A stretch of 64,000 nt of DNA from contig OZ024741.1 in the NCBI GenBank assembly GCA_964016885.1, forward strand, positions 399,714,001 to 399,778,000, read 5' to 3'. Each line of letters begins with the position of its first letter. Within the stretch, counting starts at the first letter, position 1. Origin of the DNA: Eledone cirrhosa. Its lineage: Eukaryota. Below the pieces are notes generated by a model that made no database searches, was not told where the DNA came from, and saw only the letters and a list, made by a program, of their open reading frames with translations. A program made the translations under genes and the position numbers. Below are positions 958 through 59,094 of this stretch, in pieces.

Positions 958-1664
958 TATATTCATTAGTTAAGCAAAACAAGACCACAAATTTCACAAG
1001 GAAGACATTATTTAAAGATTGTCAACATATTTGTAGTTTAATGTAAGGAATGTAAAGAATAATAATAATAATACTAATAATGTCCGTTTACAATTGTTTC
1101 GCTACTCCATATGATGTTTCTGGATCAAATGATTATAGTTCATTATTGATCTGGTTCAGTTGAAGATAATTAACTTAGGTAAAATTGGAGCATCGGTTAC
1201 TTCAAAAGGAATATAAATTAAGGTAAAAAAGATGGTTACATGAAAGTCAATTATCTTCAACTGAACCAGATCAATAATTGTTTCTACTTTAGGCACAAGG
1301 CCAGCAATTACCCAGTGCATTACTGGTACTTTATTTTATCGACCCCATAAGGATGAAAGGCAAAGTCAACCTCGGCGGGATTTGAACTCAGATCGTAAAG
1401 GGACGTAACTATGCTGGAAAGCATGGCATCCACCCTCCACCGATACTGCCAATCCACAACCAGATCAATAATGATCTACAATCATTTGATCCAGAAACAT
1501 CATATGGAGTAGCGAAACAATTGTAAACGGACATTATTAGTATTATTAGTATTATTATTATTATTCTTTACATTCCTTACATTAAACTACAACTATGTTG
1601 ACAATCTTTAAATAATGTCTTCCTTGTGAAATTTGTGGTCTTGTTTTGCTTAACTTAATGAATA
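958..1664. mobile_element. Fold-back (inverted-repeat) element, probably a Penelope pLTR remnant, interrupted by a SINE
   Basis: 958-1175 is the reverse complement of 1244-1278 plus 1458-1664. The SINE at 1279-1457 is flanked by a 15-bp TSD aaccagatcaataat (1264-1278, 1458-1472). Confidence 0.8.
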
Positions 1665-2080
1665 TTTCCAGCTCTGTGCACCTAACCTCTGCATGAACCC
1701 AGCCACCTAGCTGCCTTCCACTGCATATTGCACATTGAGCACATGCTTTTATACTTTTGGCTTCTAACTAATTCACCAATCTCTCCTCTCCTATCTCCAT
1801 CTCTCTCTTTAAGATTGGTTACTCTTGAACTGTGTGTGTGTATATACACACACACATATATATATATACACACATATATATATCAATCAAATATGTTCCC
1901 ACAAATGGAGCAGCTAGTTGTCGAGGTGCCACTCTAGATGTGCCACTGGTACAGTCAGTTGTTTGGGTGCCATTCTAGATGTGCCACTGGTGCAGCCAGT
2001 TGTTGAGGTGCCACTCTAGATACTTTTACAGTCAGCTGTCACCACCAGTCTCTATTCTCCATCATGTATTGAAGGGTCTC

Positions 2081-4580
2081 AAATATATATTGAGAAAGCT
2101 GTTTTTTGTCAAGTATATATTGAGAAAGCTGTTTTTTGTCAAGTATATATTCAGAAGGCTGTTTTTTGTCAAGTATATATTGAGAAAGCTGTTTTTTGTC
2201 AAGTATATATTGAGAAAGCTGTTTTTTGTCAAGTATATATTGAGAAAGCTGTTTTTTGTCAAGTATATATTGAGAAAGCTGTTTTTTGTCAAGTATATAT
2301 TGAGAAAGCTGTTTTTTGTCAAGTATATATTGAGAAAGCTGTTTTTTGTCAAGTATATATTGAGAAAGCTGTTTTTTGTCAAGTATATATTCAGAAAGCT
2401 GTTTTTTGTCAAGTATATATTGAGAAAGCTGTTTTTTGTCAAGTATATATTGAGAAAGCTGTTTTTTGTCAAGTATATATTGAGAAAGCTGTTTTTTGTC
2501 AAGTATATATTCAGAAAGCTGTTTTTTGTCAAGTATATATTGAGAAAGCTGTTTTTTGTCAAGTATATATTGAGAAAGCTGTTTTTTGTCAAGTATATAT
2601 TGAGAAAGCTGTTTTTTGTCAAGTATATATTGAGAAAGCTGTTTTTTGTCAAGTATATATTGAGAAAGCTGTTTTTTGTCAAGTATATATTCAGAAAGCT
2701 GTTTTTTGTCAAGTATATATTGAGAAAGCTGTTTTTTGTCAAGTATATATTCAGAAAGCTGTTTTTTGTCAAGTATATATTCAGAAAGCTGTTTTTTGTC
2801 AAGTATATATTGAGAAAGCTGTTTTTTGTCAAGTATATATTGAGAAAGCTGTTTTTTGTCAAGTATATATTGAGAAAGCTGTTTTTTGTCAAGTATATAT
2901 TGAGAAAGCTGTTTTTTGTCAAGTATATATTGAGAAAGCTGTTTTTTGTCAAGTATATATTGAGAAAGCTGTTTTTTGTCAAGTATATATTGAGAAAGCT
3001 GTTTTTTGTCAAGTATATATTGAGAAAGCTGTTTTTTGTCAAGTATATATTCAGAAAGCTGTTTTTTGTCAAGTATATATTGAGAAAGCTGTTTTTTGTC
3101 AAGTATATATTGAGAAAGCTGTTTTTTGTCAAGTATATATTGAGAAAGCTGTTTTTTGTCAAGTATATATTGAGAAAGCTGTTTTTTGTCAAGTATATAT
3201 TGAGAAAGCTGTTTTTTGTCAAGTATATATTGAGAAAGCTGTTTTTTGTCAAGTATATATTGAGAAAGCTGTTTTTTGTCAAGTATATATTGAGAAAGCT
3301 GTTTTTTGTCAAGTATATATTCAGAAAGCTGTTTTTTGTCAAGTATATATTGAGAAAGCTGTTTTTTGTCAAGTATATATTGAGAAAGCTGTTTTTTGTC
3401 AAGTATATATTGAGAAAGCTGTTTTTTGTCAAGTATATATTGAGAAAGCTGTTTTTTGTCAAGTATATATTGAGAAAGCTGTTTTTTGTCAAGTATATAT
3501 TGAGAAAGCTGTTTTTTGTCAAGTATATATTGAGAAAGCTGTTTTTTGTCAAGTATATATTCAGAAAGCTGTTTTTTGTCAAGTATATATTGAGAAAGCT
3601 GTTTTTTGTCAAGTATATATTGAGAAAGCTGTTTTTTGTCAAGTATATATTCAGAAAGCTGTTTTTTGTCAAGTATATATTCAGAAAGCTGTTTTTTGTC
3701 AAGTATATATTCAGAAAGCTGGGTTTTTTTGTCAAGTATATATTGAGAAAGCTGTTTTTTGTCAAGTATATATTGAGAAAGCTGTTTTTTGTCAAGTATA
3801 TATTCAGAAAGCTGGGTTTTTTTGTCAAGTATATATTGAGAAAGCTGTTTTTTGTCAAGTATATATTGAGAAAGCTGTTTTTTGTCAAGTATATATTCAG
3901 AAAGCTGTTTTTTGTCAAGTATATATTCAGAAAGTTGGGTTTTTTTGTCAAGTATATATTGAGAAAGCTGTTTTTTGTCAAGTATATATTGAGAAAGCTG
4001 TTTTTTGTCAAGTATATATTCAGAAAGCTGTTTTTTGTCAAGTATATATTCAGAAGGCTGGGTTTTTTTGTCAAGTATATATTGAGAAAGCTGTTTTTTG
4101 TCAAGTATATATTGAGAAAGCTGTTTTTTGTCAAGTATATATTCAGAAAGCTGTTTTTTTTTGTCAAGTATATATTCAGAAAGCTGTTTTTTGTCAAGTA
4201 TATATTCAGAAGGCTGGGTTTTTTTGTCAAGTATATATTGAGAAAGCTGTTTTTTGTCAAGTATATATTCAGAAAGCTGTTTTTTGTCAAGTATATATTC
4301 AGAAGGCTGGGTTTTTTTGTCAAGTATATATTGAGAAAGCTGTTTTTTGTCAAGTATATATTGAGAAAGCTGTTTTTTGTCAAGTATATATTCAGAAGGC
4401 TGGGTTTTTTTGTCAAGTATATATTGAGAAAGCTGTTTTTTGTCAAGTATATATTGAGAAAGCTGTTTTTTGTCAAGTATATATTCAGAAAGCTGTTTTT
4501 TGTCAAGTATATATTCAGAAAGCTGTTTTTTGTCAAGTATATATTCAGAAAGCTGTTTTTGTCAAGTATATATTCAGAAA
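2081..4580. repeat. 30-bp tandem satellite (AAGTATATATT[G/C]AGAAAGCTGTTTTTTGTC), about 83 copies
   Basis: Directly visible periodicity; 33-bp variants appear only right of ~3720. Confidence 0.98.
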
Positions 4581-5124
4581 GTTGGTATTTTTATCATCAT
4601 TTTATGTCCACATCATTTTATGCCCACATTTTCTTACTGGCATAGGTTGTATGGGATATTTTAGAGGCAATGTTTTACAGCTGGATGCCCTTCCTCACAC
4701 CAACATTTTTAGTCACCTCTCATAATATGTGTGGAGGCACATGGCGTAGTGGTAAATGTGTAGGACTTACAATCATAATGTCGTGTGTTCGATTACTGTG
4801 TTGTGTTATTGAGCAAAACACTTCATTTCACGTTGCTCCAGTATACTCAGCTGAAAATGAGTACCATCAATAGCTGTGAGGTTTAACCCTGTGATGACTG
4901 ACGTCCTGTCCAGGGGGAAGTTTTATTCTCTCAGTCACACCATGAAACCGGGATAAGCACTGGCCTAACGAGCTTAAGACTTTAGACTAGATTGGACACA
5001 TGATATCTAAGGATATGGTGTACCTATTCTGAAAACCAGGGTACATATGATCCCTAATTTTCAATATTTTAAATTGGGTCTCATGAGTATTAAAGAGTCT
5101 TATGAGTCAACTCCCACTTTAAAT

Positions 5125-6862
5125 ATACATTACATTTTTATTGTATAATATTGTGTCTATATAACATTTTGTTGTATAATGTTGTGTGTATACATTACAT
5201 ATTTTGTTGTATAATGTGTGTATACATTACATATTTTGTTGTTAATGTGTGTATACATTACATATTTTGTTGTTAATGTGTGTATACATTACATATTTTG
5301 TTGTTAATGTGTGTATACATTACATATTTTGTTGTTAATGTGTGTATACATTACATATTTTGTTGTATAATGTGTATATACATTACATATTTTGTTGTTA
5401 ATGTGTATATACATTACATATTTTGTTGTATAATGTGTGTATACATTACATATTTTGTTGTTAATGTGTGTATACATTACATATTTTGTTGTATAATGTG
5501 TATATACATTACATATTTTGTTGTTAATGTGTATATACATTACATATTTTGTTGTTAATGTGTATATACATTACATATTTTGTTGTATAATGTGTATATA
5601 CATTACATATTTTGTTGTTAATGTGTATATACATTACATATTTTGTTGTATAATGTGTATATACATTACATATTTTGTTGTATAATGTGTATATACATTA
5701 CATATTTTGTTGTATAATGTGTATATACATTACATATTTTGTTGTATAATGTGTATATACATTACATATTTTGTTGTATAATGTGTATATACATTACATA
5801 TTTTGTTGTTAATGTGTATATACATTACATATTTTGTTGTATAATGTGTATATACATTACATATTTTGTTGTATAATGTGTATATACATTACATATTTTG
5901 TTGTTAATGTGTATATACATTACATATTTTGTTGTATAATGTGTGTATACATTAGATATTTTGTTGTATAATGTGTATATACATTACATATTTTGTTGTA
6001 TAATGTGCGTCTATATAATATATTTTTGCATAATGTATGTATACACTATATATTTTGTGTATATTACATATTTTGTATAATGTTGTGTATACATTACATA
6101 TTGTATGTATTCAGTACATATTGTATATATACATTACATGTGAGTATACATTACATGTGTGTATATATATTAGATGTGTGTGTATACATTACATGTGTGT
6201 GTATACATTACATGTGAGTGTATATATTAGATGTGTGTATACATTACATGTGTATATACATTACATGTGAGTATACATTACATGTCTGTATACATTACAT
6301 GTGAGTGTGTATACATTACATGTGTGTATATATACATTACACATGTATATATATTACATGTGTGCATATATATACATTACACATGTATACATATTACATG
6401 TGTATACATTACATGTAATGTATACACATGTAATTTACACACACAGCATGTAATGTCTACACACATAACATGTAATGTCTACACACATGTAATGTATACA
6501 CACATGTAATGTATACACACATGTAATGTATATACACACATATAATGTATACACACTCACATGTAATGTATACACACATGTAATGTCTACACATATGTAA
6601 TGTATACTCACATGTAATGTATATACACATGTAATGTATACACTCACATGTAATGTATACGCTCACATGTAATGTATACACACTCACATGTAATGTATAC
6701 ACACATGTAATGTATATACACATGTAATGTCTACACACATGTAATGTATATACACACACATGTAATGTCTACACACACATATGTAATGTCTACACACATG
6801 TAATGTATATACACATGTAATGTCTACACACTCACATATAATGTCTATACACACTCATGTAA
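5125..6862. repeat. AT-rich minisatellite (TACATTACAT core) that switches orientation at a palindrome
   Basis: ~29-bp units tgtgtatacattacatattttgttgttaa shorten to tacattacatgtg, then appear as the reverse complement cacatgtaatgta after ~6414. Confidence 0.9.
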
Positions 6863-6889
6863 TTACTTAATAAAAAAGTGTTATGTTAC

Positions 6890-7158
6890 CTTGGGGCAAG
6901 TGATGTCACATATTTCACCACATTTTAGTAAATCATTGACACATTTACATAAATTACATGCAGACGTCTTAATTGAATCCTCGAGAGGTTTTCCATCAAT
7001 TAAACAACTGCAGTTACGAACACATTCACCTTCTTGGTAATAAGTTCCATCTGGACAAGCACATCCAGGGGAACAATTCTCCACATTACAGGAATGGTTA
7101 TGGAATGTACATGTTCGATTACAAGCACATTTCTTCCATATGAAAGGCCCTGTACAGT
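6890..7158 (-). CDS. Mucin-like gene exon: TIL domain plus VWC-like module
   Basis: tttcag acceptor, gtaaca donor, phase 1->0. (N)CTGPFIWKKCACNRTCTFHNHSCNVENCSPGCACPDGTYYQEGECVRNCSCLIDGKPLEDSIKTSACNLCKCVNDLLKCGEICDITCPK. Confidence 0.9.
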
Positions 7159-8871: not shown

Positions 8872-11572
8872 AATATTGCCAGAATTAATAACAGAATACA
8901 CTCACTGTTTGGTTGGTTTTCGCTTCTCGCTTCTGTGTCTTTTATATCGGTAATCTAACTTATGCAACCCCACATCACCAACGCGAGCGAAATTGCACAA
9001 CAAACACACGATGGGAGAGAGAAAATCCTCAACGCTCACATGATGATGTGGACTGACATCCTAAAGCCAAGCAGACGCACTGCCAACAACTTCCAGGCGT
9101 CTAACAATGGCATACCACCCTTGTATGGGCTCCGCAAAGACCACAAGACAGTCGACGACCCGACAACAGGACCACCAACAAGACCCGTATGCGGAGCTAA
9201 TATAGCTAGTAACTACAGGATCTCCTACTTCCTCTCAATAGTTATACGCCCCATAATCAAGATGTCCCCAGATGTATGTGATAGTACAGAGGACCTCCTC
9301 AGCAGAATCAGTGAGTGCAACAAAAACAGGAACCTATCCAACTGCATAATAGGCAGCATGGATGTGGTGTCACTGTACCCATCCATTAACATTGATTTTG
9401 CTGTGAAAAGATGTGTGGAGATGATCATTGAGAGTGAGGTGGAGTTCTGCGACGTCAACACAGATGAACTGGGCCTCCTACTTAGACTTACCTACGACAC
9501 TGACTACCTAGCCAGCCATGACCTTAGACGTTTCTGCCCAGTAGACCTATAAGAGGTAGACCCCCCACCATAACCTCAATGGCAAAAAAGACTCCCGTGG
9601 GAAGGTGGATTGGGTGGACCAAAGCTATACAGACCCCCCAAAACAATGATCAGGTAAGAAAAATGGTCGCACATGCAATAGGGGCTAGTATCAAAACTAC
9701 CCTAAAGGGCCACATATTTAAGTTCAACGAGAAGATCTACACCCAAAATGAGGGAGCAGCCATTGGCGTCAGCATAGCTGGTGATGTTGCCAACCTTTTC
9801 ATGGTATGGTGGGAAAGGAGACTTAAAGATCTCCTTAATGAGAGCTCCATAGACCTCATCATGTACTCTCGTTATGTAGACGATATCAATATAGTTATAA
9901 GAACATCCCCACTAGAAAGCACTAACAAGTTTGATTTAGAACGTAGCACGATGGAAAGCATCCAGCAGATAGCTAATTCCATACACCAGAGTATAACTGT
10001 AACTATCGACTTCCCTTCCAAACACCCTAACATTAGACTACCTGTATTAGACACAGAACTCTGGTTTAACACTATAGACGAGAGAGCCCAAATTCTCCAC
10101 TCACACTACGCTAAGCCCATGGCCTCCAAATACCTGATACTCAAAATCTCAGCAATGTCCAGTAGTGCTAAGTTTAATATTCTGATCGCAGAGTTGGTAC
10201 AAGTGATGAAGAATGTGTCCCGCATGTGCGACCCAACAGAAATGGAAAGACACATCCAACACTTCATCAACCGCATGCAGTTCTCTGGCTACAACCAAAG
10301 AGACAGAGTTAGAGTATACGAAGGAGCCATGGAGAAGTATAAGACCCTCATAGAACTGGACATGAAATAAATTTGCCCATTATACAGGAGCAAATCATGG
10401 AATAGCTTAGATAGGGCTAGACATAAGATAGGGAAAGCCACCTCATGGTACGACAACCAGAGATACCAGAGTGTCATGTTTGTGGACGCTACCCCCGGAG
10501 AGAAATTAGCTAACCAGTGTAGAAAGGCCCTGAGAAAGACCCACTTAAAGATTAAAGTGGTAGAAAAGCCAGGAACCACCATAAAATCCCTGATCAGCAA
10601 AACCTACTCTTTTAAGAAAACCCACTGTACCAATAGGAAGTGTATCATATGTAAGGTAAACCCCCGGATAAACTGTAAAATTAGAAACGTAGTCTATAGC
10701 ATAAGATGTACAGAGGGTACTTGCAGAAACATGACAACAACATATATAGGTGAGACAGCTCGTAGCATAGGTGAAAGGATAGACTAACACTGGGGGGAAC
10801 TAAAAGGACGAAAAAAAGGGGTCAGTACTATACGAACATGCTAGACAACAACATGACGGTAACATAGACAACATAGAAATTAGAATAATATCTAAACATA
10901 GAAATGACCCAGCAGATAGGCAAATCAGAGAGACCAGTGAAATAGAAATTAGAAGGCCAAGACTAAACAGAAAGAATGAATGGAATAACAACAACACCCA
11001 AACAAACAACACTGACCTAAGAGAAGTATAAATAAGTAAATAAAATAAAATAAATAAATAAATAAATACATACACAAACACAATAACAACAAGCACATAA
11101 ACACACACTAGTCACCCATCACACAGCAAACAAAACACTATACACACACGCAAACGCATGCGCAAAGAAGACAAAATAAAATAAACAAACAAACAAATAA
11201 ATAAATAAATATATAGACAGACTGAATAAAAATGGCGTAGACATATAATACAACAGGAGGAAACGATAACACCACTGACGATGTTGCAGATGTGCAACGA
11301 AAGATTTATGATAAACTATATATATATGTGTTTGTGTCTATATTGTATCTGTATTATTTTTGACCGTTGGTCAGTCAATGGCAACATTGAGGACCGAGTA
11401 AGTTAGATTACCGATATAAAAGACACAGAAGCGAGAAGCGAAAACCAACCAAACAGTGAGTGTGTTCTGTTATTAATTCTGGCAATATTACACAAATATG
11501 ACCCTCCCCAAGTATAACAATATTTGTTTCGACACACGATTTCATATAAAAAACCTCGCAAAACTAATTATA
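8872..11572 (+). mobile_element. Penelope-like retroelement (RT + C-terminal GIY-YIG), 5'-truncated and disrupted, with pLTR
   Basis: RT motifs GSMDVVSLYPSI, GAAIG and YSRYVDD; Cys linker CTNRKCIIC; GIY-YIG NVVYSIRC...YIGETARSIGER. Frameshift near 9550 and stops at 10368 and 10785. 8872-8962 is an inverted copy of 11399-11489. Flanked by (TA)n. Confidence 0.92.
11271..11312 (+). ncRNA. Minimal type I hammerhead-ribozyme motif (degenerate) in the PLE 3' region
   Basis: acca-CTGACGA-t-gttgca/gatg/tgcaac-GAAA-gatt-TA-tgat: catalytic boxes and stem II intact, stem I has one mismatch. Confidence 0.65.
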
Positions 11573-11770
11573 AATATATATATATGTGTGTATATATGTA
11601 TAAATACTTACATACATATATATACAATACAAACAGAGAAAGCCTTAAGCGATACTCCGACCAACTCATATATATATATATATATATGTGTTAGGTAATT
11701 CCAAAGGAAAAGCAAAGGAAAAAAGAGTGCTCTATGTATAGAACAGAGCTATTTAATTAGTTATGTACAT

Positions 11771-11838
11771 CTCTGTTTGACGACCGATCCAGACGTATAT
11801 TATTATTGTCTGGAATCCAGAAACCTTTGGTAATGGAG
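11771..11838 (+). ncRNA. Hammerhead-like motif in a (TA)n-flanked PLE remnant
   Basis: ctctgt-TTGACGA-(tccagac/gtctgga stem)-GAAA-cc/ttt/gg-TA-atggag; stem I pairs with G-U wobbles and core position 3 is U. Confidence 0.55.
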
Positions 11839-13077
11839 TAGTTTTATTTTGTGTTGTTCACTTTCTAATTAAATATATATATATCATCATCATCACTGTT
11901 TTACCTCCATTCTTCCACATCCTTATTTTTTCAAATTGGTATGCAGACATATGCAGTCCTTCTAGTGGGTCCTGTCAGAAGTGTTTGGGGACTCTGCCCC
12001 CATGACCCTCTCAGAAATTAGTGGGTGAAGAAGGAGAATATTTTCCATGTGAACTGAGCTTAAACAGATCAGGTGACTTGCTCATGTGCTCTGTGATTTT
12101 GGTTTGGTTTCTATGGCTAGATGCCCTTCCTAATGTCAACCAATTTACAGTGTGTACTGAGACCATTTATCATGTGTGTGTGTGATGTGTGTGTGACAGC
12201 TCACACCTATGCAGGTTTAGCTGGCCTCCTCCAAGGTATATCTCGTTGGAGGTGTCTTGGGTAATTTAATGATAGGGACCCCAGTCCTATCATCTCATTT
12301 CTACAGCTCAGTAAATTGGAGCAACGTGAAATAAAGTGTCCTGCTCAAGGAAACAACACATCACCCGGTCCAAGAATTGAACTCACAACCTTTCGATTGC
12401 AAGCCCAATGCTCTAACCACTAAGCCATGTACCTTCACATGACTCTAATAGAAACATATTTTATTATATTCATCATGGAAGGGCGGTGGATTGGCAATAT
12501 TTGGTAGAGTGTTGGACAACATGCTTCGTGGCATAGAGTTACTGCCCTTTACGGTCTGATTTCAAATCCTGCAGAGGTTAGTTTTGCCTTTCATCCTTAT
12601 TGATAAAATAGATTACCAGTAACGCTGAAGCGTACGGAGGAGATGACGAAGGACAAGTGGAGAGATGGTGTGCTGAATAGGACCCGTCCCACCCTTGCAA
12701 GCAGGGAAAAGTGGATGATGATGATGATGATGATGATGCAATGGGGTCGATTTAAATCCCTCCCCCCACACATACAACAAAATTGTTGGCCCTGTGCCTA
12801 AACCATCATACTCATTATGAAGTCCGTTTTGAGGCCTTGCTTTATGGCTGGATGCCCTTCCTAGCTACCTCATATGACACAGGTACAGGGTAGCTATGCT
12901 GAATTGTAGAGTGTGAATGTTCGTTGGTGCCATGAAAAAAACACACCCTGTACACTCTGTAAACTATTAGTGTTGTTGCTGCTACAATAAAGTGCACCCA
13001 GTATGGGTTGATCTGACTTGTCTGATCTCTGACTGTGACAAACTGTGCAACCCATTCCAGCATGGGAAGGTTGTAAT

Positions 13078-13326: not shown

Positions 13327-13377
13327 CATTTACTTTATTTGTTTTCTTAATTTTTTTTTCACATAAATTTTACTTAC

Positions 13378-13646
13378 TTTATAAAATTTACTGTTGTAGT
13401 AACAAGGACAATCAGTTGGTTTAATACACTCTCCTTTTTCTTGGACATAGTCATCGGGACACTGACAGCCAGATTCACACTCGCTTTCATCTATAATTGT
13501 AGCATTCTTTTCAGCTAAAGTCTCACAGGTTCGTAGAACAAGACAAGTTGTATATTCCTTTGGTGGATCACATTGCGGTCTTGGTGTTGTAGTTGTCATT
13601 GTAAATGTTGGAGTAAAAGATGTGCTAGTCATTTCTAAAGATGTCA
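13378..13646 (-). CDS. Mucin-like gene exon: Thr-rich linker plus TIL domain
   Basis: tttacag acceptor, gtaagt donor, phase 1->0. ...TTTTPRPQCDPPKEYTTCLVLRTCETLAEKNATIIDESECESGCQCPDDYVQEKGECIKPTDCPCYYNSKFYK, with the GCxCP...ECIxxxDCPCxYN pattern of mucin TIL-E modules. Confidence 0.92.
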
Positions 13647-13669
13647 CTGTAAAATAAAAATCCTGGTAT

Positions 13670-15569: not shown

Positions 15570-15742
15570 CTGTAATATAAAAAACAGAAACAGAGAAACA
15601 TTAATGTACAGAAAACAGAAACATATGCAGAAAAACAGACACACACAAACATATACATGTGTGTGTATACATATATTTATATATATATAATATATATATA
15701 TGAGGATTTCTCCCGAATGAAAAAGTTCTAGTCCTGTAGAAG

Positions 15743-15830
<88 letters not shown>

Positions 15831-15885
15831 GTGAGGTTTTTTTTACAAAATGAAAAATAACCGAGGTGTCCTACACGAGTGAAAG

Positions 15886-16154
15886 TATAAAGAAAAAGAG
15901 ATGAAATCGAAAATGCAACTGAAGTCTTATTTTTTTTAAAAATATATATATTTATTTGGTTCCTTTACCGGTTTCGCAGTTCTTCTGGAGGGTCTGTGGT
16001 TTTTCTCACATCTGTGAGAAAAACCACAGACCCTCCATCACAACTCACCTTTTGAAAAGCAGAAGAACTGCGAAACCGGTAAAGGAACCAAATAAATATA
16101 TATATTTTTTAAAAAAATAAGACTTCAGTTGCATTTTCGATTTCATCTCTTTTT

Positions 16155-16160
<6 letters not shown>
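15886..16160. mobile_element. Fold-back PLE pLTR remnant containing a minimal hammerhead motif (16048-16085, +)
   Basis: Outer arms ~15886-15986 and ~16060-16160 are reverse complements, with an inner hairpin ggagggtctgtggtttttctcaca/tgtgagaaaaaccacagaccctcc. Motif: cctt-TTGAAAA-gcag/ctgc-GAAA-ccgg-TA-aagg. Confidence 0.75.
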
Positions 16161-16223
<63 letters not shown>

Positions 16224-16230
16224 TATATAT

Positions 16231-16688
16231 TGTTATACTTTGGGAGGGTCATGTTGCCAATAAGAAACACACGCACCAGTTGCTTTCATTCCAATTTATT
16301 ATAAATTAAATTTATAAATTTAAAAATTTATAAATTTCCGGTTGGTTGGTTGGTTCCACAACCGGACAGTTGTTCATATATTGTCAAAGTTCTTTCGTCA
16401 CACATTCTGTGACCTCTTCAGTAACTGGGGATTCTTTTCTTTGTTTTGTGCCTCTCCTTTGTTCTGTCCTATGCCATCTTGTTTTTGTGTGTGTCCGGTT
16501 GTGGAACCAACCAACCAACCGGAAATTTATAAATTTTTTTAATTTATAATTTAATTTATAATAAATTGGAGTGAAAGCAACTGGTGCATGTGTTTCTTAT
16601 TGGCAACATGACCCTCCCAAAGTATAACGATATCGGTTTCAACACACGTTTTCAGATAAAGAATCTTGCTAAACAAATTCAGAAAAAT
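16231..16688. mobile_element. Fold-back PLE pLTR remnant with hammerhead motif (16383-16425, -) and ORF start
   Basis: 16232-16368 is the reverse complement of 16492-16628. The loop carries gtta-CTGAAGA-g-gtcaca/tgtgac-GAAA-gaac-TT-tgac on the minus strand. 16608 starts MTLPKYNDIGFNTRFQIKNLAK, homologous to 11498. Confidence 0.8.
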
Positions 16689-17234
16689 ATATATATTTAT
16701 TTATATTATAATTGTCTTATGTTGTTTATTACATAAAATCTGGGATACACACACAAATACACACATATATATATATATGTATTTGTGTACAGTGACATAG
16801 AAATACTTGGTTTGGTACCCAAGCACAAGGTCAATCCACGACTGACAGACCCCTAAATTTTGTTAGGACATCATTCTGGGAGAAGGAAAACTGATGTAAA
16901 ACCTGTGACTCGATGGTAACCAATGATGTTGACCTATTCTTCTTTTTGTATACCTGTCAACATTGTTCAGAGAGTAGGATTGTTCCAGTGTAAGGCCTTT
17001 CTTCATTTAAAAGAGCTCCAACCACAGGCATTACTTTATCTAATCAACTTTCATATGTTTGGCAGTTTGAGAAAAGGTTATTCATGAAAATTAGATCCAT
17101 TCTAGTTGACTGATGTCATCCTTTTGGTCCAGTCGTAGAAGAGGGAAATCAAAAATTGAATGCATTTAACACCGAAGACAGAAAGGATTTATTGAATGAA
17201 AAATGTATAATATTGTCAAAAAAAACATACTTAC

Positions 17235-37784: not shown

Positions 37785-37925
37785 CTGAAATGGAAATTCA
37801 TGTTAAAAAATGTGAATATTTTAAAAATTTTGAATTTATAATTAAAACAGCATTATTTAAAAGACATTAATTTACGGACACTCTCACTTACTCATACATA
37901 CACACACACTTAAATATATATATAT

Positions 37926-38094
37926 GTAACAAAGAGGGTGTGGTAATATACCAGGTGGACCATAACACACCAGAGTACTCAATACTTAGGGTAGTGGAGT
38001 GGGTAATAGGAAAAGAGTCAGGACCCCGATGCCTGAGCTTGGATCTAGCTGTTGAAATGGCCGGAGCTCAGCCATCGGGGTCATGACTCTATTC

Positions 38095-38097
<3 letters not shown>
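37926..38097. mobile_element. Short hairpin-forming repeat family at (TA)n tracts (probable PLE pLTR fold-back remnants)
   Basis: Shares gagtgggtaataggaaaagagtcaggacccc and the flanking segment with copies at 50078-50285 and 58045-58245, and (in reverse-complement, partial) at 50410-50510. Each copy forms a long hairpin next to (TA)n. Confidence 0.7.
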
Positions 38098-38179
<82 letters not shown>

Positions 38180-38224
38180 GATAAAATAAATAAGTCAAAT
38201 GTTTAAAATTTAGCTTCGTTTATT

Positions 38225-38279
38225 ACTGCTATATGTATTTCAGTGACAGCCATCTTTGGCTGTGACCTCTTCAGGCAGT
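38225..38279 (-). ncRNA. Type I hammerhead ribozyme motif (inverted pLTR copy; sense to the mucin pre-mRNA)
   Basis: actgc-CTGAAGA-ggtcacagcca/aaga/tggctgtcact-GAAA-tacata-TA-gcagt on the minus strand. Confidence 0.8.
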
Positions 38280-41200
38280 CCGTATTAGTGTGGTATAGAC
38301 AAGTACATATGTTGTTGAGGTGTATAACTTTGTCAATACTCTGATATGCCCAGTTCCTGGTTGGGTTGTTATTTCACTGAGGAGCTGGAATCATATGAAT
38401 TCAAACAAACGAATTTCAGTGTCATGGGCTTCTTCTCCTCTCATTGGTCAGTTGTTAGAACATTCCTCATTCAAAAGTCCATAGAAATTCGTTCTGAGGC
38501 AAGCCAATCTGCAGTTGTTGTTCTTGTTATTGTTAGGTACATCTGACCTCAATTCTTGTGTTGGTAGTGTTGTTATTGTTGGAGTTAGCTCAAAAAATTG
38601 ATAAAGTGGTAGAAGGAATAAGATGGTAAATGAACAAAATAACAAAAATATGTCAAACTTCCCATTGGTCAGTTTTGAGAGCATTCCTCAGTCAGAAGTC
38701 TATAGAAATTCTTTCTAAGGTGAGGCTCCCTGTAGTGTTTGTGTTTGCTATTGTTAAGTACATCTGACCTCTACCTTTATTTTGGTAGTGTTGTTGGTGT
38801 TGTGGTCAGCTTATGTCTTGCTGCTGCTGACAATTTAGAAGTATCTATGTGTGTGTTTTTTCATCCCTCCTGCCACCATCTCCTGAGGTGGTGGTGGTGG
38901 TGGGGAGGGGGGGGGGGGTTCTTCGATGTATATGAAGAAATATAAGGCAATAAAATGAAGAAAACAGAAAATAAATAATAAATAGAGAATAAAGAATGAA
39001 TGAAAAATTAATGAAAATGTAATGAAAATGAATATGGAGAAGTGAAAAATAAAATGAAGATTGAAATAAAGTAAGATAAAGTGTGTGTGTGCTATAACCA
39101 ATCTCAAGGTCAGAAATATGTTGGATATATTGGTATGAGAAACAAGATGGTAAAAGAATAAAAGAATATTTTACATTACTCCGGAGTAACCAAACCAACC
39201 TGCGCACTTCGTCGAGTGCTCCAATCTGCATACTGAGGTGTTGGTATACAACCAGCATATACTCAAAATCTATCTAGCTCCCACACGGGTTGAGCGCTTC
39301 AAACATTAGCGGACTTAAGTCACTATGGATAAACTGGCAACCTTAGCGTCACTGAAGGTCATCCGCCTACCTGACAAACGAGAATACACCAGTGATCTAA
39401 TCAAGTGTACGGACTCCCTCGTCCGTAGGATGAGATGGAAGGCGTTCCACTTCGAAAGAGGAACGCAAAAAATTACCAACACACAAAACATGGAGTACCT
39501 TTTTCGATCAAGGAGGAATCCCCCCTCCCCCACAACAGACTAATGGAGGAGTTTGAAAACGAGATGATTAACATCATATCCAACCTCAAATTCTCCGGAA
39601 ACCCAAGCAGAAGTCAGGAGTACCTCAGACACCTGAGAAACCGGATTACAGTACTTAAAGAGACAACTGGAATACTTGTCCATGCTGACAAAACCAACAA
39701 CCTCTACAACATGAACACTGAACTGTATAATAAGCTAATTCTCAGGGAACTGGGGAAGTGCTACAAAAAAACACCTGGATTTACCCTGGATGAGATCAAT
39801 GCCACAGCTTACAGGATTATATCTAGACTCGGCAAAGAGGACAGGACGGCCCCATATCAACCAAGGGAGCCGCGGATTACCCTTAAAGATCACAAGCCAA
39901 ACTTTGAGTCCAACCTCCCTGTCAGACTAATAGCCCCCTCCAGATCTGACCTAGGGATCGTCAGTAAAAGAATACTAGATAGGATTTTGCCCAAGCTTCG
40001 GAAGAAAACTAAATTACAGCAATGGTCATGCACGGGAGAAGTAATAGAATGGTTTAAGATACTACATGAGAGAAGTAAGACCAGCTTTATACAACTGGAT
40101 ATCGCAAGCTACTACTCCGCAATCTCACTCAATAAGCCCCTATTTTTAACGATGTCCAATACGGACCTAACCCGAGAGGAGGTGAGCATCATCCACGCCG
40201 CAAGAAAGACCTTAATCCGTTTCGATGGAGACCTTTGGACCAGGAGTGATTGGCCAAATAACTTTGACATCACGATAGGCTCCAGCGACTCAGCGCAGGT
40301 AACGGACCTGGTTGGGCTCTTCCTGCTGAAGCAGATAAAAAATGAAATCCCCTGCCTGGGCAGCGGATTATATCGTGACGATGCTCTATTCACAGTATAT
40401 GACCACAGCACCAATATGTTGGAGGGAATGAGAAGGCGTATTCGCCATTTCTTTAAGAACCAGGGGCTCAGTATCGAACTAGACCCAAATAGGAAGGTAG
40501 TTAACTTCCTAGACACCACCCTAAACCTGAACACCGAACAATACCCCTACCACAAGCCCAACGAGAAACTCGTATATGTTAACGCCAAATCAAACCACCC
40601 TAGATCCATAACCAAGGCCGTGGTGAAGAGTGTCTCGGACAGGATCTCCAGCCTGTCCGCAAGTAAGGAAATATTCGATAACAACGCGGAATATTACAAC
40701 GCAGCTCTAAATAAGGCGGCACATGGCCAAAATATAACATATAGTCCGAAACGCCGGGATGGGGATGGCCCAATGGACACCCGCATCCGCGTTGCCCGGG
40801 GGAGGCGAACCCTAACAATAAAGGCAGAACAAAAACAAATAGGCACCATGAGCCCGACACCACCACACGGGCGTTGGTGACTAGTACGCTTAACCATGAG
40901 ATGAAACCCAATATGAGTAGCAGTCTCAGGGGTGACGCTAACCACCCCAAGACCGACGACCCCCAACCGCAGGACACGTGGGGGCGGAACGGGGGACTAC
41001 CCCGCGATAGATCTCCCAGCGCGGGCAACGACCACCCCACAGATTCGGGCGGTGAAGATAGCAAGACGCATAGCGTCCAAAGGGGAAGCAACAGTGCGGG
41101 AACCACCAGCAACCCAACAAATCTCCAACAACTCATGACGCCCCGACCCACACATATAGGAGGAGACACAGAAAAATCACGTGGTACAATCCACCCTACT

Positions 41201-43218
41201 CAGCGGCCCTAAAGAACAGCTTGGCCCGATCATTCTTTGGAGCACTTGATAAATGCTTCCCGAGGGACCATAGATACCACAGGATCTTCAACAGACACAC
41301 GGTGAAGTTTTCGTATTCCACAACGAGAAATCTGGCCCAACACATAGTTAGCATCAACAGGAGTAGGCTTAAAAACCACACACAACCATAAGATGGCAAT
41401 ACAAGCACTCAGCAGAAACATGTGAAAGGAGGGAAGGGGGACCTAGTTCCCACCCAAGAAACCCAAACAGACCCGGGGACCCCCCACCGTGCCTGGGGGA
41501 AGACCACCATGTAACACCTAACGGGAACCCCATTCTAGGCACGCAGAGGTCGAACACCCTCTGGAACTGCAGAAACCCCGAATCATGCCCCCTTGGTAAT
41601 GAATGCCTTAAGAAGAACCTAGTATACGGTTGTAGGGTTAAAAACCCCAACTCCGAACACCTCTACATAGGAGCCACATCAACGAGCTTTAAAGACCGCT
41701 GGTACAACCATCGCCATTCCTTCAATAAGGAGGCCAAAAAGAAAAGCACGGCTCTCTCTGACCTGATCTGGAAGCTTAAGCTGGACAGTACTCTCAGGCC
41801 TGGTACATAATCAGGAAAGTACCACCCGATAAAGGGGATCTTGCATATGCAAACTATGCCTGAACGAGACCCTCGAGATACTAAGAGGTGGAAGCGGCCT
41901 GATAAACCTCAGAACCGACTTCTTTGGGACATGCAGACACCTCAGATCCGGGACCTTCCTCAAGATATATGGAAAGTAGCAACACAAGAAGATGTGAACT
42001 CCCCTCAAGCGATAGGGACTTCTCCAGAACATGTAGACACCTCTCAGCCAGCTATATGGGCAATAACAACACCCTAGGTTGAGAACTCCCCTCAAGCCAT
42101 AGGGACCAACCCAGGCTGAGCTGACACCATGATAGCCTAGAGATTGATTCGGACACAGCCATTATAATTTGGCCAACATCTTTATAATACAAACACATTT
42201 TATTTTACTTGATTTCTCTTTATTAATTTGTTATTTGTTTTCTGTTCTCTTCTTCACTTTATCACCTTATATTTATTTTTAAGTTGAGATTGGTTATAAC
42301 ACAAACACATTTTATTTGATTATCTTATTCTTTTATTCTTTTACCATCTTGTTTCTCATACCAATATATCCAACATATTTCTGACCTTGAGATTGGTTAT
42401 AGCACACACACACTTTATCTTACTTTATTTCAATCTTCATTTTATTTTTCACTTCTCCATATTCATTTTCATTACTTTTTCATTAATTTTTCATTCATTC
42501 TTTATTCTCTATTTATTATTTATTTTCTGTTTTCTTCATTTTATTGCCTTATATTTCTTCATATACATCGAAGAACCCCCCCCCCCCCCTCCCCACCACC
42601 ACCACCACCTCAGGAGATGGTGGCAGGAGGGATGAAAAAACACACACATAGATACTTCTAAATTGTCAGCAGCAGCAAGACATAAGCTGACCACAACACC
42701 AACAACACTACCAAAATAAAGGTAGAGGTCAGATGTACTTAACAATAGCAAACACAAACACTACAGGGAGCCTCACCTTAGAAAGAATTTCTATAGACTT
42801 CTGACTGAGGAATGCTCTCAAAACTGACCAATGGGAAGTTTGACATATTTTTGTTATTTTGTTCATTTACCATCTTATTCCTTCTACCACTTTATCAATT
42901 TTTTTGAGCTAACTCCAACAATAACAACACTACCAACACAAGAATTGAGGTCAGATGTACCTAACAATAACAAGAACAACAACTGCAGATTGGCTTGCCT
43001 CAGAACAAATTTCTATAGACTTTTGAATGAGGAATGTTCTAAGAACTGACCAATGAGAGGAGAAGAAGCCCTTTGACACTGAAATTCGTTTGTTTGAATT
43101 CATATGATTCCAGTTCCTCAGTGAAATAACAACCCAACCAGGAACTGGGCATATCAGAGTATTGACAAAGTTATACACCTCAACAACATATGTACTTGTC
43201 TATACCACACTAATTCGG

Positions 43219-43273
43219 ACTGCCTGAAGAGGTCACAACCAAAGATGGCTGTCACCGAAATATATATAGCAGT
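43219..43273 (+). ncRNA. Type I hammerhead ribozyme motif in the PLE pLTR
   Basis: actgc-CTGAAGA-ggtcacaacca/aaga/tggctgtcacc-GAAA-tatata-TA-gcagt: 5-bp stem I, intact core and a palindromic stem III of the PLE dimer type. Confidence 0.85.
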
Positions 43274-43484
43274 AATAAACGAAGCTAAATTTTAAACATT
43301 TGACATTTATTTTATCTTATTTTACATTACTCCGGAGTAACCAAACCAACCTGCGCACTTCGTCGAGTGCTCCAATCTACATACTGAGTTGTTGGTATAC
43401 AACCAACATATACTCAAAATCTCTATATATATATATAATAGTAGTAACAATAATATGATTAACTAGAGTAGTTAAACTGCTTTA

Positions 43485-49287: not shown

Positions 49288-49829
49288 CTGTAATTTAAGA
49301 ATTATAAAATGGTAAATGTTATAATTTAGAAATATACTTATTAACATGCATGATATAAATACAATAGACATGTATATATATATATATGTATATGTATATA
49401 TCGTTGTCGTCATCATTTTATGTCCGCTTTTCCCTTCTTGCAAGGGTGGGGTGAGAGCTGATTCTGGCTCGATTTCTACAGCTGGATGCCCTTCCTAACA
49501 CCAACCTCATTCACAGTGAGTGCTGGGTGCTTTTTTTCCATGGTGCCTACACGTCCACTTTACAGTGAGTGCTGAGTGCTTTTTTGCCGTGGCACCTTCA
49601 CAACCACTTTGCAGTGGAATTATAGGGACCCCAGTCCCTATTATCTCATTTCTACAGCTAAGTAAACTGGAGCAATGTGAAATAAAGTGTCTTGCTCAAG
49701 GAAACAACACATCACCCGGTCTGAGAATTGAACTCACAATCTTTCGATTGCAAGGCCAATGCTCTAACCACTAAGCCATATATATAATAATAAACAAGAA
49801 AGACGGTTTCAATTGTACATCTCTATTTA

Positions 49830-49900
49830 TTTTCTTATACGTATTTCAAAGACATATAGCAGTTATATAACATCTGCCATACATGTTCTCTTCAGACCAC
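49830..49900 (-). ncRNA. Degenerate hammerhead-like motif in a (TA)n-flanked remnant
   Basis: CTGAAGA-long stem (acatgtatggcag/ctgctatatgt)-GAAA-tacgta-TA on the minus strand; stem I does not pair. Confidence 0.5.
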
Positions 49901-50282
49901 AATCCAAACGAGATGTAAATATCTATTGATATGTTACCACTCATATATGTTATTCTCTTCGCTGACCAGTAAGCATATGTCCAAAATTCTCAAGCAGCAG
50001 TTCTTATATGTGTGGGATATAGACATTCCAATTGGCGTTGCTGCTTGTGAACTAGCTAAAGTATCAAGTTACCATATATAGAGTGGGTAATAGGAAAAGA
50101 GTCAGGACTCTGATGGCTGAGCTCCGGGTGTTTCCACAGCTAGATCCGAACGCTCATATCTAGCTGTTGAAATGGCCGGAGCTCAGCCATCGAGGTCCTG
50201 ACTCTTTTCCTATTACCCACTCTACGACTCTAAGTACTCTAGTGTGTTATGGTTCACCTGGTATCTTACCACACCCTCTTTG

Positions 50283-50344
<62 letters not shown>

Positions 50345-50687
50345 TAAAATAACAGATTAAAGTTTAATCAAAGAATCACTGCTTTCATCCTTAACGGGAT
50401 CACCTGAGTTTCAGAGCTCAAACCGTTTCAACGGCTATTTCTGGACGCAAAAATAGCCGTCAAAACGGCTTGAGCTCTGCTGTCAGGGTCCTGAACCTTT
50501 TCCTATTAACATATATATATATACAGCTATTTTTTATTATGATTCATATACATGATAATCCATTGCAACTAAGGATTTCATGAGCTAACAAGCCTGCATA
50601 TGGGCAAGCTGTTTTTGTTAGTCATATAATCAGGTAAATGTGCAATTCATGGATGATTGATATCTATAATGTGTGTATAAGTAATTA

Positions 50688-53942: not shown

Positions 53943-55737
53943 ACAACAAGTGACACTTTCCTGGTGAAACTCCAAGCTTGTTGCTAACTGTTGTTGCTGG
54001 CTTGCATGTTACTCAAGACACCATTCATGAACCAAGACAGTTTATCCTCATCATCACTGTTTTACGTCCATTCTTCCACGCTAGCATGGGTTAGACGGGT
54101 TGTCCTGCTGTGGGCAGTGTCCGGTCGGCTGACCTTGTCTTGCTCATACGTGAACTGATTCATCATCATCATCATTTTATTTTACGTCCGCTTTTCCCTG
54201 CTTGCAAGGGTGGGGCAGTAACTGATTCTGGCTTGATTTTTACAGCTGGATGCCCTTCCTAACACCAACCTCATTTACAGTGAGTGCTGGGTGCTTTTTT
54301 TTCCATAGCGCTTTGCAGTGGAATGATAGGCACCCCAGTCCCTATCATCGCATTTCTACAGCTGATTAAACCGGAGCAATGTGAAATAAAGTGTCTTGCT
54401 CAAGGAAACAACACATCACCCGGTCTGAGAATTGAACTCACAACCTTTCGATTGCAATGCCAATACTCTAACCACTAAGCCATGTGCCTATTCTGGCTTG
54501 ATTTCTACAGCTGGATGCCCTTCCTAACACCAATCTATTTACAGTGAGTGCTGGGTGCTTTTTTTCCGTGGTACGTATGTGTCCACTTTACAGTGTAGGC
54601 TGGGTGCTTTTTTGTCATGGCACCTCCATGACCACTTTGCAGTGTGGGGGTGGGGGCATATTGTCTATATGCTTTAGCTTCGGCTTGTACCCATGGGAAG
54701 TCGGGTCTTCTGTATTACTGCGTGACGCCAGAGGTCACGGTCGTGTGTCATCACCCTTGAGAGGTGTAATTAGGTAAGTTCAGCTTTTATCACCCCATCC
54801 CAGGTCTTCTTGGGTCTCCCCACTCTAAGACTTCCATCGACCTCTAGTGCTCTGCACCTTTTTATGCAGCTGTCATCCTTCATACGCATCACATGTCCAT
54901 ACAGAGATGTTCAGAAAAATTGCTCATGAACCAATTTGTTTGTGATGTGAGGTATTCTGAGGTTCCACTTTGAGGATCCTAGAGGGGGCCAGCGCTCTTT
55001 CTTTTTCACTACACTGTATTAACTGGTTGACACATTATCAATAGAATCCAACCACAGAAAATGTGTTAAAAACTGAAGTGTATGAACAAGACATACTCCC
55101 CCCCCCCTCCACCCCACGGGCCCATCTAAGGGGGAAATAACTCCAAATAAGAACTGACTCAAACTGAAACAACCTGCCTATCCCATAACAACAGGGAAAG
55201 TAGATATAAAAAGCTGGTGATAATAATTGTTTCTACTTTTGGCACAAGGCCAGCAATCATCCCAGTGTATTACTGGTAGTTTATTCTATAGACCCCATAA
55301 GGATGAAAGGCAAAGTTAACCTTGGCGGAATTTGAACTTTGAACGTAAAGGGCCGTAACTCTTTGCTGCAAAGCATGGCATTCGACCCTCTACCGATACT
55401 GCCAATCCACCGCCCTTAAAGCTGGTCATAATAATGGTTTCTGATTTAGGCACAAGACCAACAATTTTGGAATAAGGATAGTTGATTATATCGACCTCAG
55501 TGAATTACTGGTACTTTAGTTTATCGACCCCATAAGGATGAAAGACAAAGCTAACCTCAGCCAGATTTGAACTTGGAATATAAAGGGCTGTAACTATATT
55601 CCACAAAGCATGTTGTCTGATGCTCTACCAATTCTGCTACCAATTCACTGCCCTAGTGATAATAATGATGATATTCCAACAATAATATCCAAGATAAACA
55701 ACAATAAAAGATATAATTAAGGAATAAAATAGCTTAC

Positions 55738-57437: not shown

Positions 57438-57506
<69 letters not shown>

Positions 57507-57785
57507 GTATCCACAGTAAGTTGTGGGGTCTATTCTGCATGAAGAACTTAATGTAATCCATATGTTGAAAATGTTGTAAGTTAAGATAAATCTCAGAAAA
57601 CAATAAAACATTAAAAGGAAAACAGAGTCATGATATAAGTTAAAACAATGAAATAAAAAATCAAGTCATTAGAGATATACTTCACTGCTTTACGATCGTT
57701 TCTAGATGGTGATAATACATTGTATCTATATTCCGTTATTGATCTATGTAAGTTTACTGAGTATAGATACAATGTATTATCAGCA

Positions 57786-57847
<62 letters not shown>

Positions 57848-59094
57848 GTTTTTACTTTTGGCACAAGGCCAGCAATTACCCAGTACATCACTGGTACTTT
57901 ATTTTATCGACCCCGTAAGGATGAAAGGCAAAGTTAACCTTGGAGGGATTTGAACTCAGTCCGTAAAGGGACGTAACTCTATGCTAGAAAGCATGGCATC
58001 CGACCCTCTACTGATACTGCCAATCCATTGCCCTATATATATAATGAAGGAAATGTGGTAAGGAACCAGGTGGACTATAACGCACCAAAGTACTCAATAC
58101 TTAGGGTAGTAGAGTGGGTAATAGGAATGAGTAGGACCCCGACGGCTGAGCTCAAGCCATTTCGACGGCTAATTCCGGACCTTTTTTTTAGTCCGGAATT
58201 AGCCGTCGAAACGGCTTGAGCTCAGCCGTTGGGGTCCTACTCGTTCATATATATATATATATATATATACACACGTATATGGAGGCAAATGGCTTAGTGG
58301 TTAGAGCATTGGCCTTGCAATTGAAAGGTTGTGAGTTCAATTCTCAAACCGGGTGATGTGTTGTTTCCTTGAACAAGACACTTTATTTCACATTGCTCCA
58401 GTTTATTCAGCTGTAGAAATGAGATGATAGGTCTGGGGTCCCTATCATTCCACTGCAAAAGTGGTCGTGGAGGTGCCACGGCAAAAAAGCACTCAGCACT
58501 CACTGTAAAGTGAGGTTGGTGTTAGGAAGGGCATCCAGCTGTAGAAATCAAGCCAGAATCAGTTCCCGTCCCACCCTTGCAAGCAGGGAAAAGCAGATGT
58601 AAAATGATGATGATGGTGATGATATATATTCGATCGACTTTCGTCAAATTTGACTGAGAAAACAATGTTTCCATGGGTCTTTCCAATTGCTAATACTATC
58701 TATCAGTCGCAACTCCAGGTAGAAGGAGCAACATGAAATAAAGTGCCTTGCTCAAGGGCAAAACGCATTGCTCGGTCCAGGAATCGAACTCACAATTGAT
58801 TGCGAATCCAATTCTCTCACCGCTCAGCCAAGCGCCTTCATACATATATATATTTTTTTTTTTTTACTGGAGAAGTAAGCAGGAAGTTATACACAGCCTA
58901 GTGAGAGAACTAACTGATGGGAGGCACAGTAGATGAAGACTTGCTTGAATCTTCTTCAATCAACTCTCAGAAGATACAGACATCAGAGGAGTTGTGAAGA
59001 GCAATGATAAATAGGGAATTATGGAGAGACTTTGTGAGGAATGTTTGACTGTGGTCACAATCATGATAAATATAAAACAAGTTAGAACACTTAC

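What the first reader, a model, noticed from the sequence alone, without database searches (positions are those of the whole stretch)
958..58245. Swarm of Penelope-derived fold-back elements with minimal hammerhead ribozymes, mostly at (TA)n tracts, inside one gene
Seen: seven hammerhead-core motifs from several sequence families (11271+, 11771+, 16048+, 16383-, 38225-, 43219+, 49830-), plus half-motifs (1255-1510, 57691-57789, 50160, 58200). Most sit beside (TA)n, and many lie in or next to long inverted repeats. Established: Penelope-like elements carry minimal type I hammerheads with palindromic stem III that cleave as dimers, and they make inverted pLTR structures. Inference: the short non-coding hairpins are either a stereotyped abortive integration product (cDNA snap-back at the structured ribozyme) or a non-autonomous, retrozyme-like class mobilised by PLE RTs and targeted to (TA)n.
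Basis: partly seen in the sequence, partly recalled or inferred. Interest (0 to 1): 0.75.

Follow-up and report, generated by a model that had tools for sequence, protein, structure and literature searches.

The report
Penelope hairpins ending at transcription start
These mirror-image repeats are short insertions of about ten abundant Penelope-type jumping genes sitting in TA repeats; the short ones stop about 30 bases behind a TATA-like box and so are likely copies of just the front end of the element's RNA, while full-length copies run straight past that point, which offers a test of how these elements regain their promoter.

Summary
The motifs are real and belong to about ten Penelope-like element (PLE) families. 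Three of the seven named hammerheads look intact, four are damaged, and two are one insertion. The window is not special: similar insertions occur at about 6 per 64 kb elsewhere. The two families studied in depth have autonomous RT plus GIY-YIG parents. Their hairpins sit in (TA)n, carry the PLE tail on one arm only (78 of 81 pairs), share alleles between arms and have mostly unique junctions. Arm 5' ends pile up about 30 nt behind a TATA-like box (41 of 87; 125 of 155), which is upstream of the hammerhead in one family and inside its loop II in the other. So the apex tracks a predicted transcription start, not the ribozyme, and these are not retrozymes. Copies that have traversed the ORF never stop there (0 of 20; 0 of 14), implying circular, multimeric or strand-transferred templates. 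No RNA data were available.

The parts
959..1665 (.). Family F4 head-to-head insertion (arms 959-1156 and 1458-1665, plus a 35-nt inverted piece); hammerhead core deleted in this copy; tail continues past 1665 (end not mapped); inserted at the end of a LINE fragment
1270..1457 (+). Unrelated dispersed short repeat inserted into the right arm of F4
   Evidence: (many window copies)
8872..11595 (+). Family F6 5'-truncated PLE: tail-less inverted arm 8872-8962 after (TA)11, broken RT/endonuclease frames 8959-10784, damaged hammerhead 11271-11311, tail from 11490
11687..11872 (+). Family F7 short insertion: inverted tail piece, then an arm starting just after the family's usual 5' end; core mutated at position 3
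15700..15747 (+).
15824..16161 (.). Family F1 hairpin in (TA)n: tailed arm on the left, tail-less arm on the right, apex near 16020 at the predicted start site; intact U3-A8 minimal hammerhead 16048-16079 (+)
16227..16706 (.). Family F2 hairpin: tail-less minus arm with intact hammerhead (core 16421) beginning just upstream of a YY1-like motif; tailed plus arm beginning about 19 nt after the predicted cut site
37911..38095 (.). Family F3-type hairpin with internal deletion
38169..43422 (+). Family F8 near-full-length PLE: 1-kb tail-less inverted arm 38169-39168, body from 39167 with broken RT and GIY-YIG frames, hammerhead 43219-43273, tail 43318-43422; holds both the 38225- and 43219+ motifs
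49783..50075 (-). Family F9 arm; hammerhead core at 49895, stem I broken
50076..50284 (.). Family F3-type hairpin with tail, ending at (TA)28; 3' half of the hammerhead only
50412..50511 (.). Small F3-type hairpin
57500..57790 (-). Family F5 insertion between two (TA)n tracts with short fold-back 57703-57789; 3' half of a U3-A8 hammerhead with a large loop II
58044..58247 (.). Family F3 hairpin: tailed left arm, tail-less right arm, apex at the predicted start site inside hammerhead loop II

Best explanation
The hairpins are head-to-head pairs of short copies of the ends of ordinary endonuclease-bearing Penelope-like elements, inserted in (TA)n, and they likely form when both strands of a cut TA tract prime reverse transcription on one uncut, capped RNA at two fixed internal sites and both copies run off at or near the transcription start. 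Shown: family membership, autonomous parents, (TA)n flanks, one tail per pair, shared alleles between arms, unique junctions, and a sharp 5' edge 30-31 nt behind a TATA-like box. Inferred: that this edge is the transcription start and cap; that priming is two-ended; that the arms are joined by microhomology. The short copies lack the promoter and would be mostly dead ends. The hammerhead is carried along uncut in most copies; a minority of F1 arms begin at or just after its predicted cut site, so some templates may have been cleaved. Copies that have already crossed the ORF do not stop at the edge, so they likely use a template without a 5' end there (circle or read-through multimer) or transfer from the cap to the 3' repeat; which one is unresolved.
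For: Parents: F1 has intact 775-aa RT plus GIY-YIG frames; F3 and F2 have RT/GIY-YIG frames upstream. Abundance: 11,632, 23,824 and 17,089 exact motif matches for F1, F3, F2, reversed controls 0. 5' ends in a position-ordered sample from one chromosome: F1 58 of 95 arms at -5..+15 with a hammerhead anchor and 41 of 87 with a downstream anchor, against 3 at -30..-6; F3 125 of 155 aligned arms, against 1 at -30..-6. Genome-wide F3: 3,042 matches just upstream of the edge against 23,824 just downstream (different patterns). G before the first base in 11 of 19 arms that start exactly at +1. One tailed and one tail-less arm in 24 of 24 callable F1 pairs (4 of 28 uncallable) and 54 of 57 callable F3 pairs (3 of 60 uncallable). 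In short pairs the tail-less arm reaches further 5' in 6 of 18 (F1) and 15 of 50 (F3), and by kilobases in some long copies, so it cannot be a fold-back copy of the tailed arm. Allele sharing between arms 21/22, 20/23, 27/27 (F1) and 28/28, 25/28, 49/50 (F3) against 0.33-0.72 expected. Junctions distinct in 20 of 20 and 47 of 55 short pairs. (TA)4 within 6 nt of 78 of 89 and 137 of 144 arm ends against 5.5% at random. Four F3 copies start at the edge and continue 113-851 nt from the tail end into the ORF region, linking the edge to ORF-bearing RNA. PMC11167929 (main text read) shows a PLE protein cutting and extending both strands, two internal start sites and no need for hammerhead cleavage.
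Against: No RNA evidence: the start site is inferred from DNA ends and motif spacing, and I chose the +1 position after seeing the junction cluster. In F3 the TATA-like box is degenerate in several subfamilies. The extra-G count is small, and in hairpins the G can come from the other arm. ORF-traversing copies never stop at the edge (F1 0 of 20, F3 0 of 14), which a plain linear capped mRNA does not predict. 22 F3 ends scored at -4 are probably an alignment effect of the palindromic junction. Only F1 and F3 were quantified; F2, F4, F5, F7, F9, F10 were judged by eye, and F4 shows no clear TATA box. Allele sharing cannot separate one RNA molecule from two RNAs of one source locus, or later gene conversion.
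Confidence: 0.75

Rival explanations
1. The edge is a pause or template-switch hot spot on a longer RNA (local structure or bound protein), not a 5' end.
For: F1 has a 6-bp hairpin right at the edge; F3's edge abuts the 3' strand of stem II; no RNA data exclude it.
Against: Same 30-31-nt spacing from a TATA-like box in unrelated families with different local structure; extra G; ORF-traversing copies pass the same sequence without stopping.
Confidence: 0.12
2. A single cDNA stalls at the folded hammerhead, snaps back on itself and copies itself to make the second arm.
For: Arms share alleles; F3 apices lie within the hammerhead and F10, F5, F7 apices lie close to its 5' edge; 13 of 87 F1 arms start at +72..+94, at or after the cut site.
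Against: F1 apices lie 42 nt upstream of the core; the tail-less arm often holds 5' sequence absent from the tailed arm while lacking the tail; both junction polarities occur.
Confidence: 0.07
3. The hairpins are a self-propagating, retrozyme-like non-autonomous class copied as hairpin or circular RNAs.
For: Tens of thousands of copies; a few tandem repeats of short units; some junctions recur 2-3 times in F3.
Against: Continuous size range up to full-length parents; junctions nearly all unique; no head-to-tail arrays delimited by cut sites; the promoter is absent; F3 short copies hold half a ribozyme.
Confidence: 0.05

Closest known systems
Endonuclease-bearing PLE insertions with inverted 5'-truncated pLTR and one-sided tail (PMC3846280, passages read; PMC8557442, passages and section 10 read)
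   Same: RT plus C-terminal GIY-YIG parent, partial tandems, head-to-head inverted arm, tail on one arm, palindromic junctions, TATA and Inr-like motifs or a start site in the pLTR, microsatellite targets
   Different: Tails here are about 60-105 nt rather than 30-40; the commonest product is only the start-to-tail segment; the passages read do not report 5' ends piling at the start site or the run-through contrast; F1 and F2 parents have two overlapping frames
Minimal type I hammerheads of metazoan PLEs (PMC4209133, parts 1-2 of 4 read)
   Same: Short stem I, palindromic or near-palindromic stem III, U3-A8 core variant, pairs of motifs 100-700 bp apart on opposite strands, mostly in truncated copies; circular template proposed there
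   Different: F3, F4, F5 have 45-75-nt loop II; F3 has a 6-bp stem III and its predicted promoter and start inside loop II; about 38 of 100 listed F3 upstream halves have an unpaired C3/A8 core
Poseidon element of green anole in vitro (PMC11167929, parts 1-2 of 4 read)
   Same: Two internal start sites that define the tail, both DNA strands cut and extended, AT-rich target, hammerhead cleavage dispensable
   Different: Genomic 5' ends and arm pairing were not analysed in the parts read; no reads at the cut site there, whereas a minority of F1 arms begin near it
Metazoan non-LTR retrozymes (PMC7229834, passages read; bioRxiv 10.64898/2026.07.22.740005, part 1 of 5 read)
   Same: Non-coding, type I hammerhead, likely moved by PLE enzymes
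   Different: Retrozymes are head-to-tail arrays with a hammerhead per unit; these are head-to-head pairs that match the ends of autonomous PLEs

Membership tests
EN+ Penelope-like element | RT followed by C-terminal GIY-YIG endonuclease | tested here: met
   F1 parent: RVT_1 E 1.3e-6 (28.7 bits, just under cut-off), GIY-YIG E 2.9e-6 (above cut-off) in one 775-aa frame; weaker hits in window F6 and F8
EN+ Penelope-like element | Partial tandem pLTRs and inverted 5' arm | tested here: met
EN+ Penelope-like element | Tail on one end only, equal to the start of the next unit | tested here: met
   78 of 81 callable pairs; tail precedes the ORF in tandems
EN+ Penelope-like element | Phylogenetic placement in a named clade (Penelope/Poseidon, Neptune, Nematis, Hydra) | not tested
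   No reference set used; a cysteine motif before GIY-YIG is visible in F6, F8, F3 and F1 frames
Minimal type I hammerhead | Conserved core with a 3-8 pair | tested here: met
   F1 U3-A8; F2, F8, F10 C3-G8; not met by window copy 11771 or by about 38% of listed F3 halves
Minimal type I hammerhead | Stem covariation among copies | tested here: met
   F10, 12 hand-picked copies: 92.9% cells paired, 2 stem I pairs with changes on both sides, slid controls 32-49%; related copies inflate the shuffle comparison; other families not counted
Minimal type I hammerhead | Self-cleavage as monomer or dimer | not testable with these tools
   Only an indirect hint: 13 F1 arms at +72..+94 against 3 at +42..+71, two exactly at +72
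Non-LTR retrozyme | Head-to-tail tandem units each with a complete hammerhead | tested here: not met
   Head-to-head pairs or solos; F3 short units carry half the motif
Non-LTR retrozyme | Abundant small linear and circular RNAs | not testable with these tools
   No RNA holder listed

The most novel reading that the evidence does not exclude
PLEs use two kinds of template: linear capped RNA, whose copies stop at the cap and give the promoter-less hairpins, and an endless template made when the two hammerhead copies of a full-length mRNA pair, cut and close into a circle (or bring the cap next to the 3' repeat for strand transfer), which lets long copies run past the start site and regenerate the promoter. 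The 0 of 34 versus 166 of 222 contrast would be the genomic footprint of that step.
Probability: 0.3. Interest if true: 0.75.

Novelty: new member of a known kind. Interest (0 to 1): 0.5.

Why it matters
How PLEs make inverted ends, what their hammerhead does and how a copy regains a promoter that lies upstream of its own start site are open questions in the papers read. This genome has very young, very abundant families with intact proteins, so base-level end maps give concrete predictions: the start site, two priming sites, a cut site and a template class. It also means many short 'MITE-like' or unknown palindromes in such genomes are PLE by-products, roughly 6 per 64 kb from these ten families alone. 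The window itself is ordinary.

Tried and rejected
Rfam scan: no hammerhead model matched. PDB sequence search with the F8 RT frame: nothing meaningful. Sequencing-run search with an F1 stretch: no RNA holder listed, so no reads were laid. A hairpin query returns only hairpins, so those 30 loci were left out of all end, tail and allele counts. Folding energies of single motifs did not separate them from shuffles. The idea that F3 is a clean monomer-active ribozyme was weakened by the C3/A8 subfamily and by predicted folds that favour other pairings. The idea that every partial tandem comes from a unit-length circle is contradicted by L448, whose two direct repeats differ. No genome-wide count of arms ending at the predicted cut site was obtained; that question rests on 87 arms, and some of the 13 late-starting arms end at an internal AT palindrome that could collapse after insertion. 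The F3 sample was anchored upstream of its cut site and cannot show such ends. The host taxon was not tested.
Full report
Setting. The window lies on contig C2 of a 3.0-Gb animal genome. It holds minus-strand mucin-like exons with TIL domains and long Thr/Pro repeats, LINE fragments and many short repeats. The taxon was not tested; an earlier scan note calls this genome octopus-type. Family labels F1-F10 are mine. Hammerhead numbering, the TATA-to-start spacing of about 30 nt, the names Inr and YY1, the copying of a cap as an extra G and the A-to-G signature of RNA editing are recalled knowledge and come from no call.

Observation. All named motifs and inverted repeats exist. A strict descriptor found one motif against 0.025 in shuffles, a relaxed one three against 0.15; Rfam found none. 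Against family siblings, three motifs look intact (16048+, 16383-, 43219+) and four are damaged (11271+, 11771+, 38225-, 49830-); 38225- and 43219+ are the two ends of one PLE with RT and GIY-YIG remnants. The half-motifs are 3' halves of hammerheads whose loop II is 45-75 nt long in longer relatives. In F10, 12 hand-picked copies show compensatory changes at two stem I pairs, with slid controls far lower. The window's 13 insertions compare with 6.1 per 64 kb in twenty evenly spaced 10-kb pieces, measured with window-derived queries, so it is at most about twofold enriched.

Families and parents. Exact motif counts are 11,632 (F1), 23,824 (F3), 17,089 (F2) and 276 (F7), with reversed controls at 0. 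F4 and F5 gave 1,678 and 1,752 first-look candidates. F1 extends upstream into a 4.7-kb unit with a roughly 400-aa first frame and a 775-aa RT plus GIY-YIG frame. F3 and F2 likewise lead to RT/GIY-YIG frames. The hairpins are therefore the short end of a size range of ordinary PLE insertions.

Anatomy of the short copies. I merged 170 loci taken in positional order from chromosome C1 into 433 kb, leaving out the 30 loci of the hairpin-biased search. Arm 3' ends abut (TA)4 in 78 of 89 (F1) and 137 of 144 (F3) callable cases against 5.5% at random. Head-to-head pairs have one tailed and one tail-less arm in 24 of 24 and 54 of 57 callable cases; 4 and 3 pairs were uncallable. The arms share subfamily alleles far above chance, yet the tail-less arm often reaches further 5' (6 of 18, 15 of 50; equal in 4 and 12), so two RNA-templated syntheses are needed in those cases. 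Junctions are distinct in 20 of 20 and 47 of 55 short pairs, so each hairpin was made anew.

Where the apex lies. F1 arms end sharply at a base 31 nt behind a TATA box and 42 nt upstream of the hammerhead core: 41 of 87 at -5..+15, 3 at -30..-6, 23 further upstream, 7 at +16..+66 and 13 at +72..+94. F3 arms end at an Inr-like motif 30 nt behind a TATA-like box that lies inside loop II: 125 of 155 at -5..+15, 1 at -30..-6, 29 further upstream. By eye F10, F7 and F9-like families show the same spacing and F2 arms start just upstream of a YY1-like motif, often with an extra G; F4 does not show it clearly. Arms starting exactly at +1 have G before them in 11 of 19 (p about 0.01 against an assumed 0.3). 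The position was picked after seeing the cluster, the F3 box is degenerate in several subfamilies, and no RNA run was available, so the start site is inferred.

The hammerhead. Most templates were uncut, since arms span the motif. In F1 a second, smaller edge begins at the predicted cut site (+72): two arms start exactly there, each in a hairpin whose other arm also starts later, and density rises from 3 in 30 nt to 13 in 23 nt (p 0.002). Several of those arms end at an internal AT palindrome, so this is a hint only. In F3 about 38 of 100 listed upstream halves have an unpaired 3-8 position (counted by eye), which argues against required catalysis in that family.

Run-through. Of 85 exact F1 tail-to-ORF junctions I examined the first 30: 29 run more than 1 kb into the ORF, 20 extend past the start site, none stops at -5..+15 and 10 stop short (Fisher p 2.5e-7 against terminal arms). 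Of 30 F3 junction loci (best-scoring of 672 candidates), 15 run more than 1 kb into the ORF: 14 pass the start, none stops, 1 stops short. One of the 14 is the query locus and two are units of one tandem. Four of the other 15 start at the edge and end 113-851 nt on, so capped-type ends do occur on ORF-bearing RNA. For a circle or same-template recopying: private variants are shared by both repeats in 2 of 5 full-length F1 copies, the other 3 being uninformative, and no two-unit tandem appears among the 85 F1 junctions. Against: F3 has multi-unit tandems that could give read-through RNA, and in one F2 insertion the upstream repeat and the inverted tailed arm share 32 A-to-G changes that the downstream repeat lacks, which a unit-length circle cannot produce.

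Comparison with print. Inverted arms, one-sided tails, junction palindromes and pLTR promoter motifs are described in PMC3846280 (passages) and PMC8557442 (passages, section 10). Minimal hammerheads, the U3-A8 variant, opposite-strand pairs and the circle hypothesis are in PMC4209133 (parts 1-2 of 4). Two internal start sites and two-strand extension are in PMC11167929 (parts 1-2 of 4). Retrozymes are tandem arrays (PMC7229834, passages; 10.64898/2026.07.22.740005, part 1 of 5). PMC13282606 (passages) does not mention hammerheads or palindromes. Seven searches showed no paper reporting start-site ends or the run-through contrast; subscription papers and supplements were not seen. I wrote down the start-site reading; the scan's notes, opened, give the same reading for other genomes, and a word search for the run-through contrast returned nothing.

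Verdict. Known kind of element and of insertion structure, new families. The interest lies in the end maps and in the run-through contrast, which make the template question testable.

Noticed in passing
L448 (arms near 5380-6457, 6548-7733 and 1034-2227); L099-L101: One F2 insertion whose upstream repeat and inverted tailed arm share 32 A-to-G changes between about the predicted start and the hammerhead, while the downstream repeat lacks them; looks like edited RNA written into DNA, or a previously edited source copy.
   Followed up: partly
L329, L330, L332, L333, L335; L448: F1 parents have two overlapping frames (about 409 and 775 aa, second in the -1 frame, overlap about 88 nt) in every copy holding both; F2 has 369 and 919 aa. 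PLEs are usually described with one frame; a frameshift or intron is possible.
   Followed up: no
window:39167-39271 and 43318-43422; L333, L348, L368, L370, L373: Several long copies begin within the tail segment of the upstream repeat (7 of 30 F1 junction loci at +156..+197), as if copying often halts at the upstream priming site.
   Followed up: partly
L329 both repeats: A private short duplication that begins at the predicted hammerhead cut site is present in both repeats.
   Followed up: no
L452, L454, L459, L467, L476: F3 copies whose 3' ends fall about 100-125 nt past the usual tail end; possibly a third priming site.
   Followed up: no
G000:C1:91476553-91487262: Four F3 units in tandem with a 3,542-nt period.
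   Followed up: no
window:46692-47784 and 51721-53950: LINE (RT plus PHD finger) with an 823-nt inverted repeat at 100% identity; a second copy ends at 961.
   Followed up: no
window:50340-50411: Short piece between two F3-type hairpins that recurs beside (TA)n in other loci; likely the tail of a further family.
   Followed up: no
window:17152-23931 and 31996-37002 (-): Very long exons of 57-nt and 126-nt tandem repeats encoding Thr/Pro-rich mucin-like sequence, with TIL-domain exons at 13333-13782 and 6884-7180.
   Followed up: partly
window:24559-24647, 53820-54159, 59631-59848, 61932-61998: Other local fold-backs not assigned to a family.
   Followed up: no
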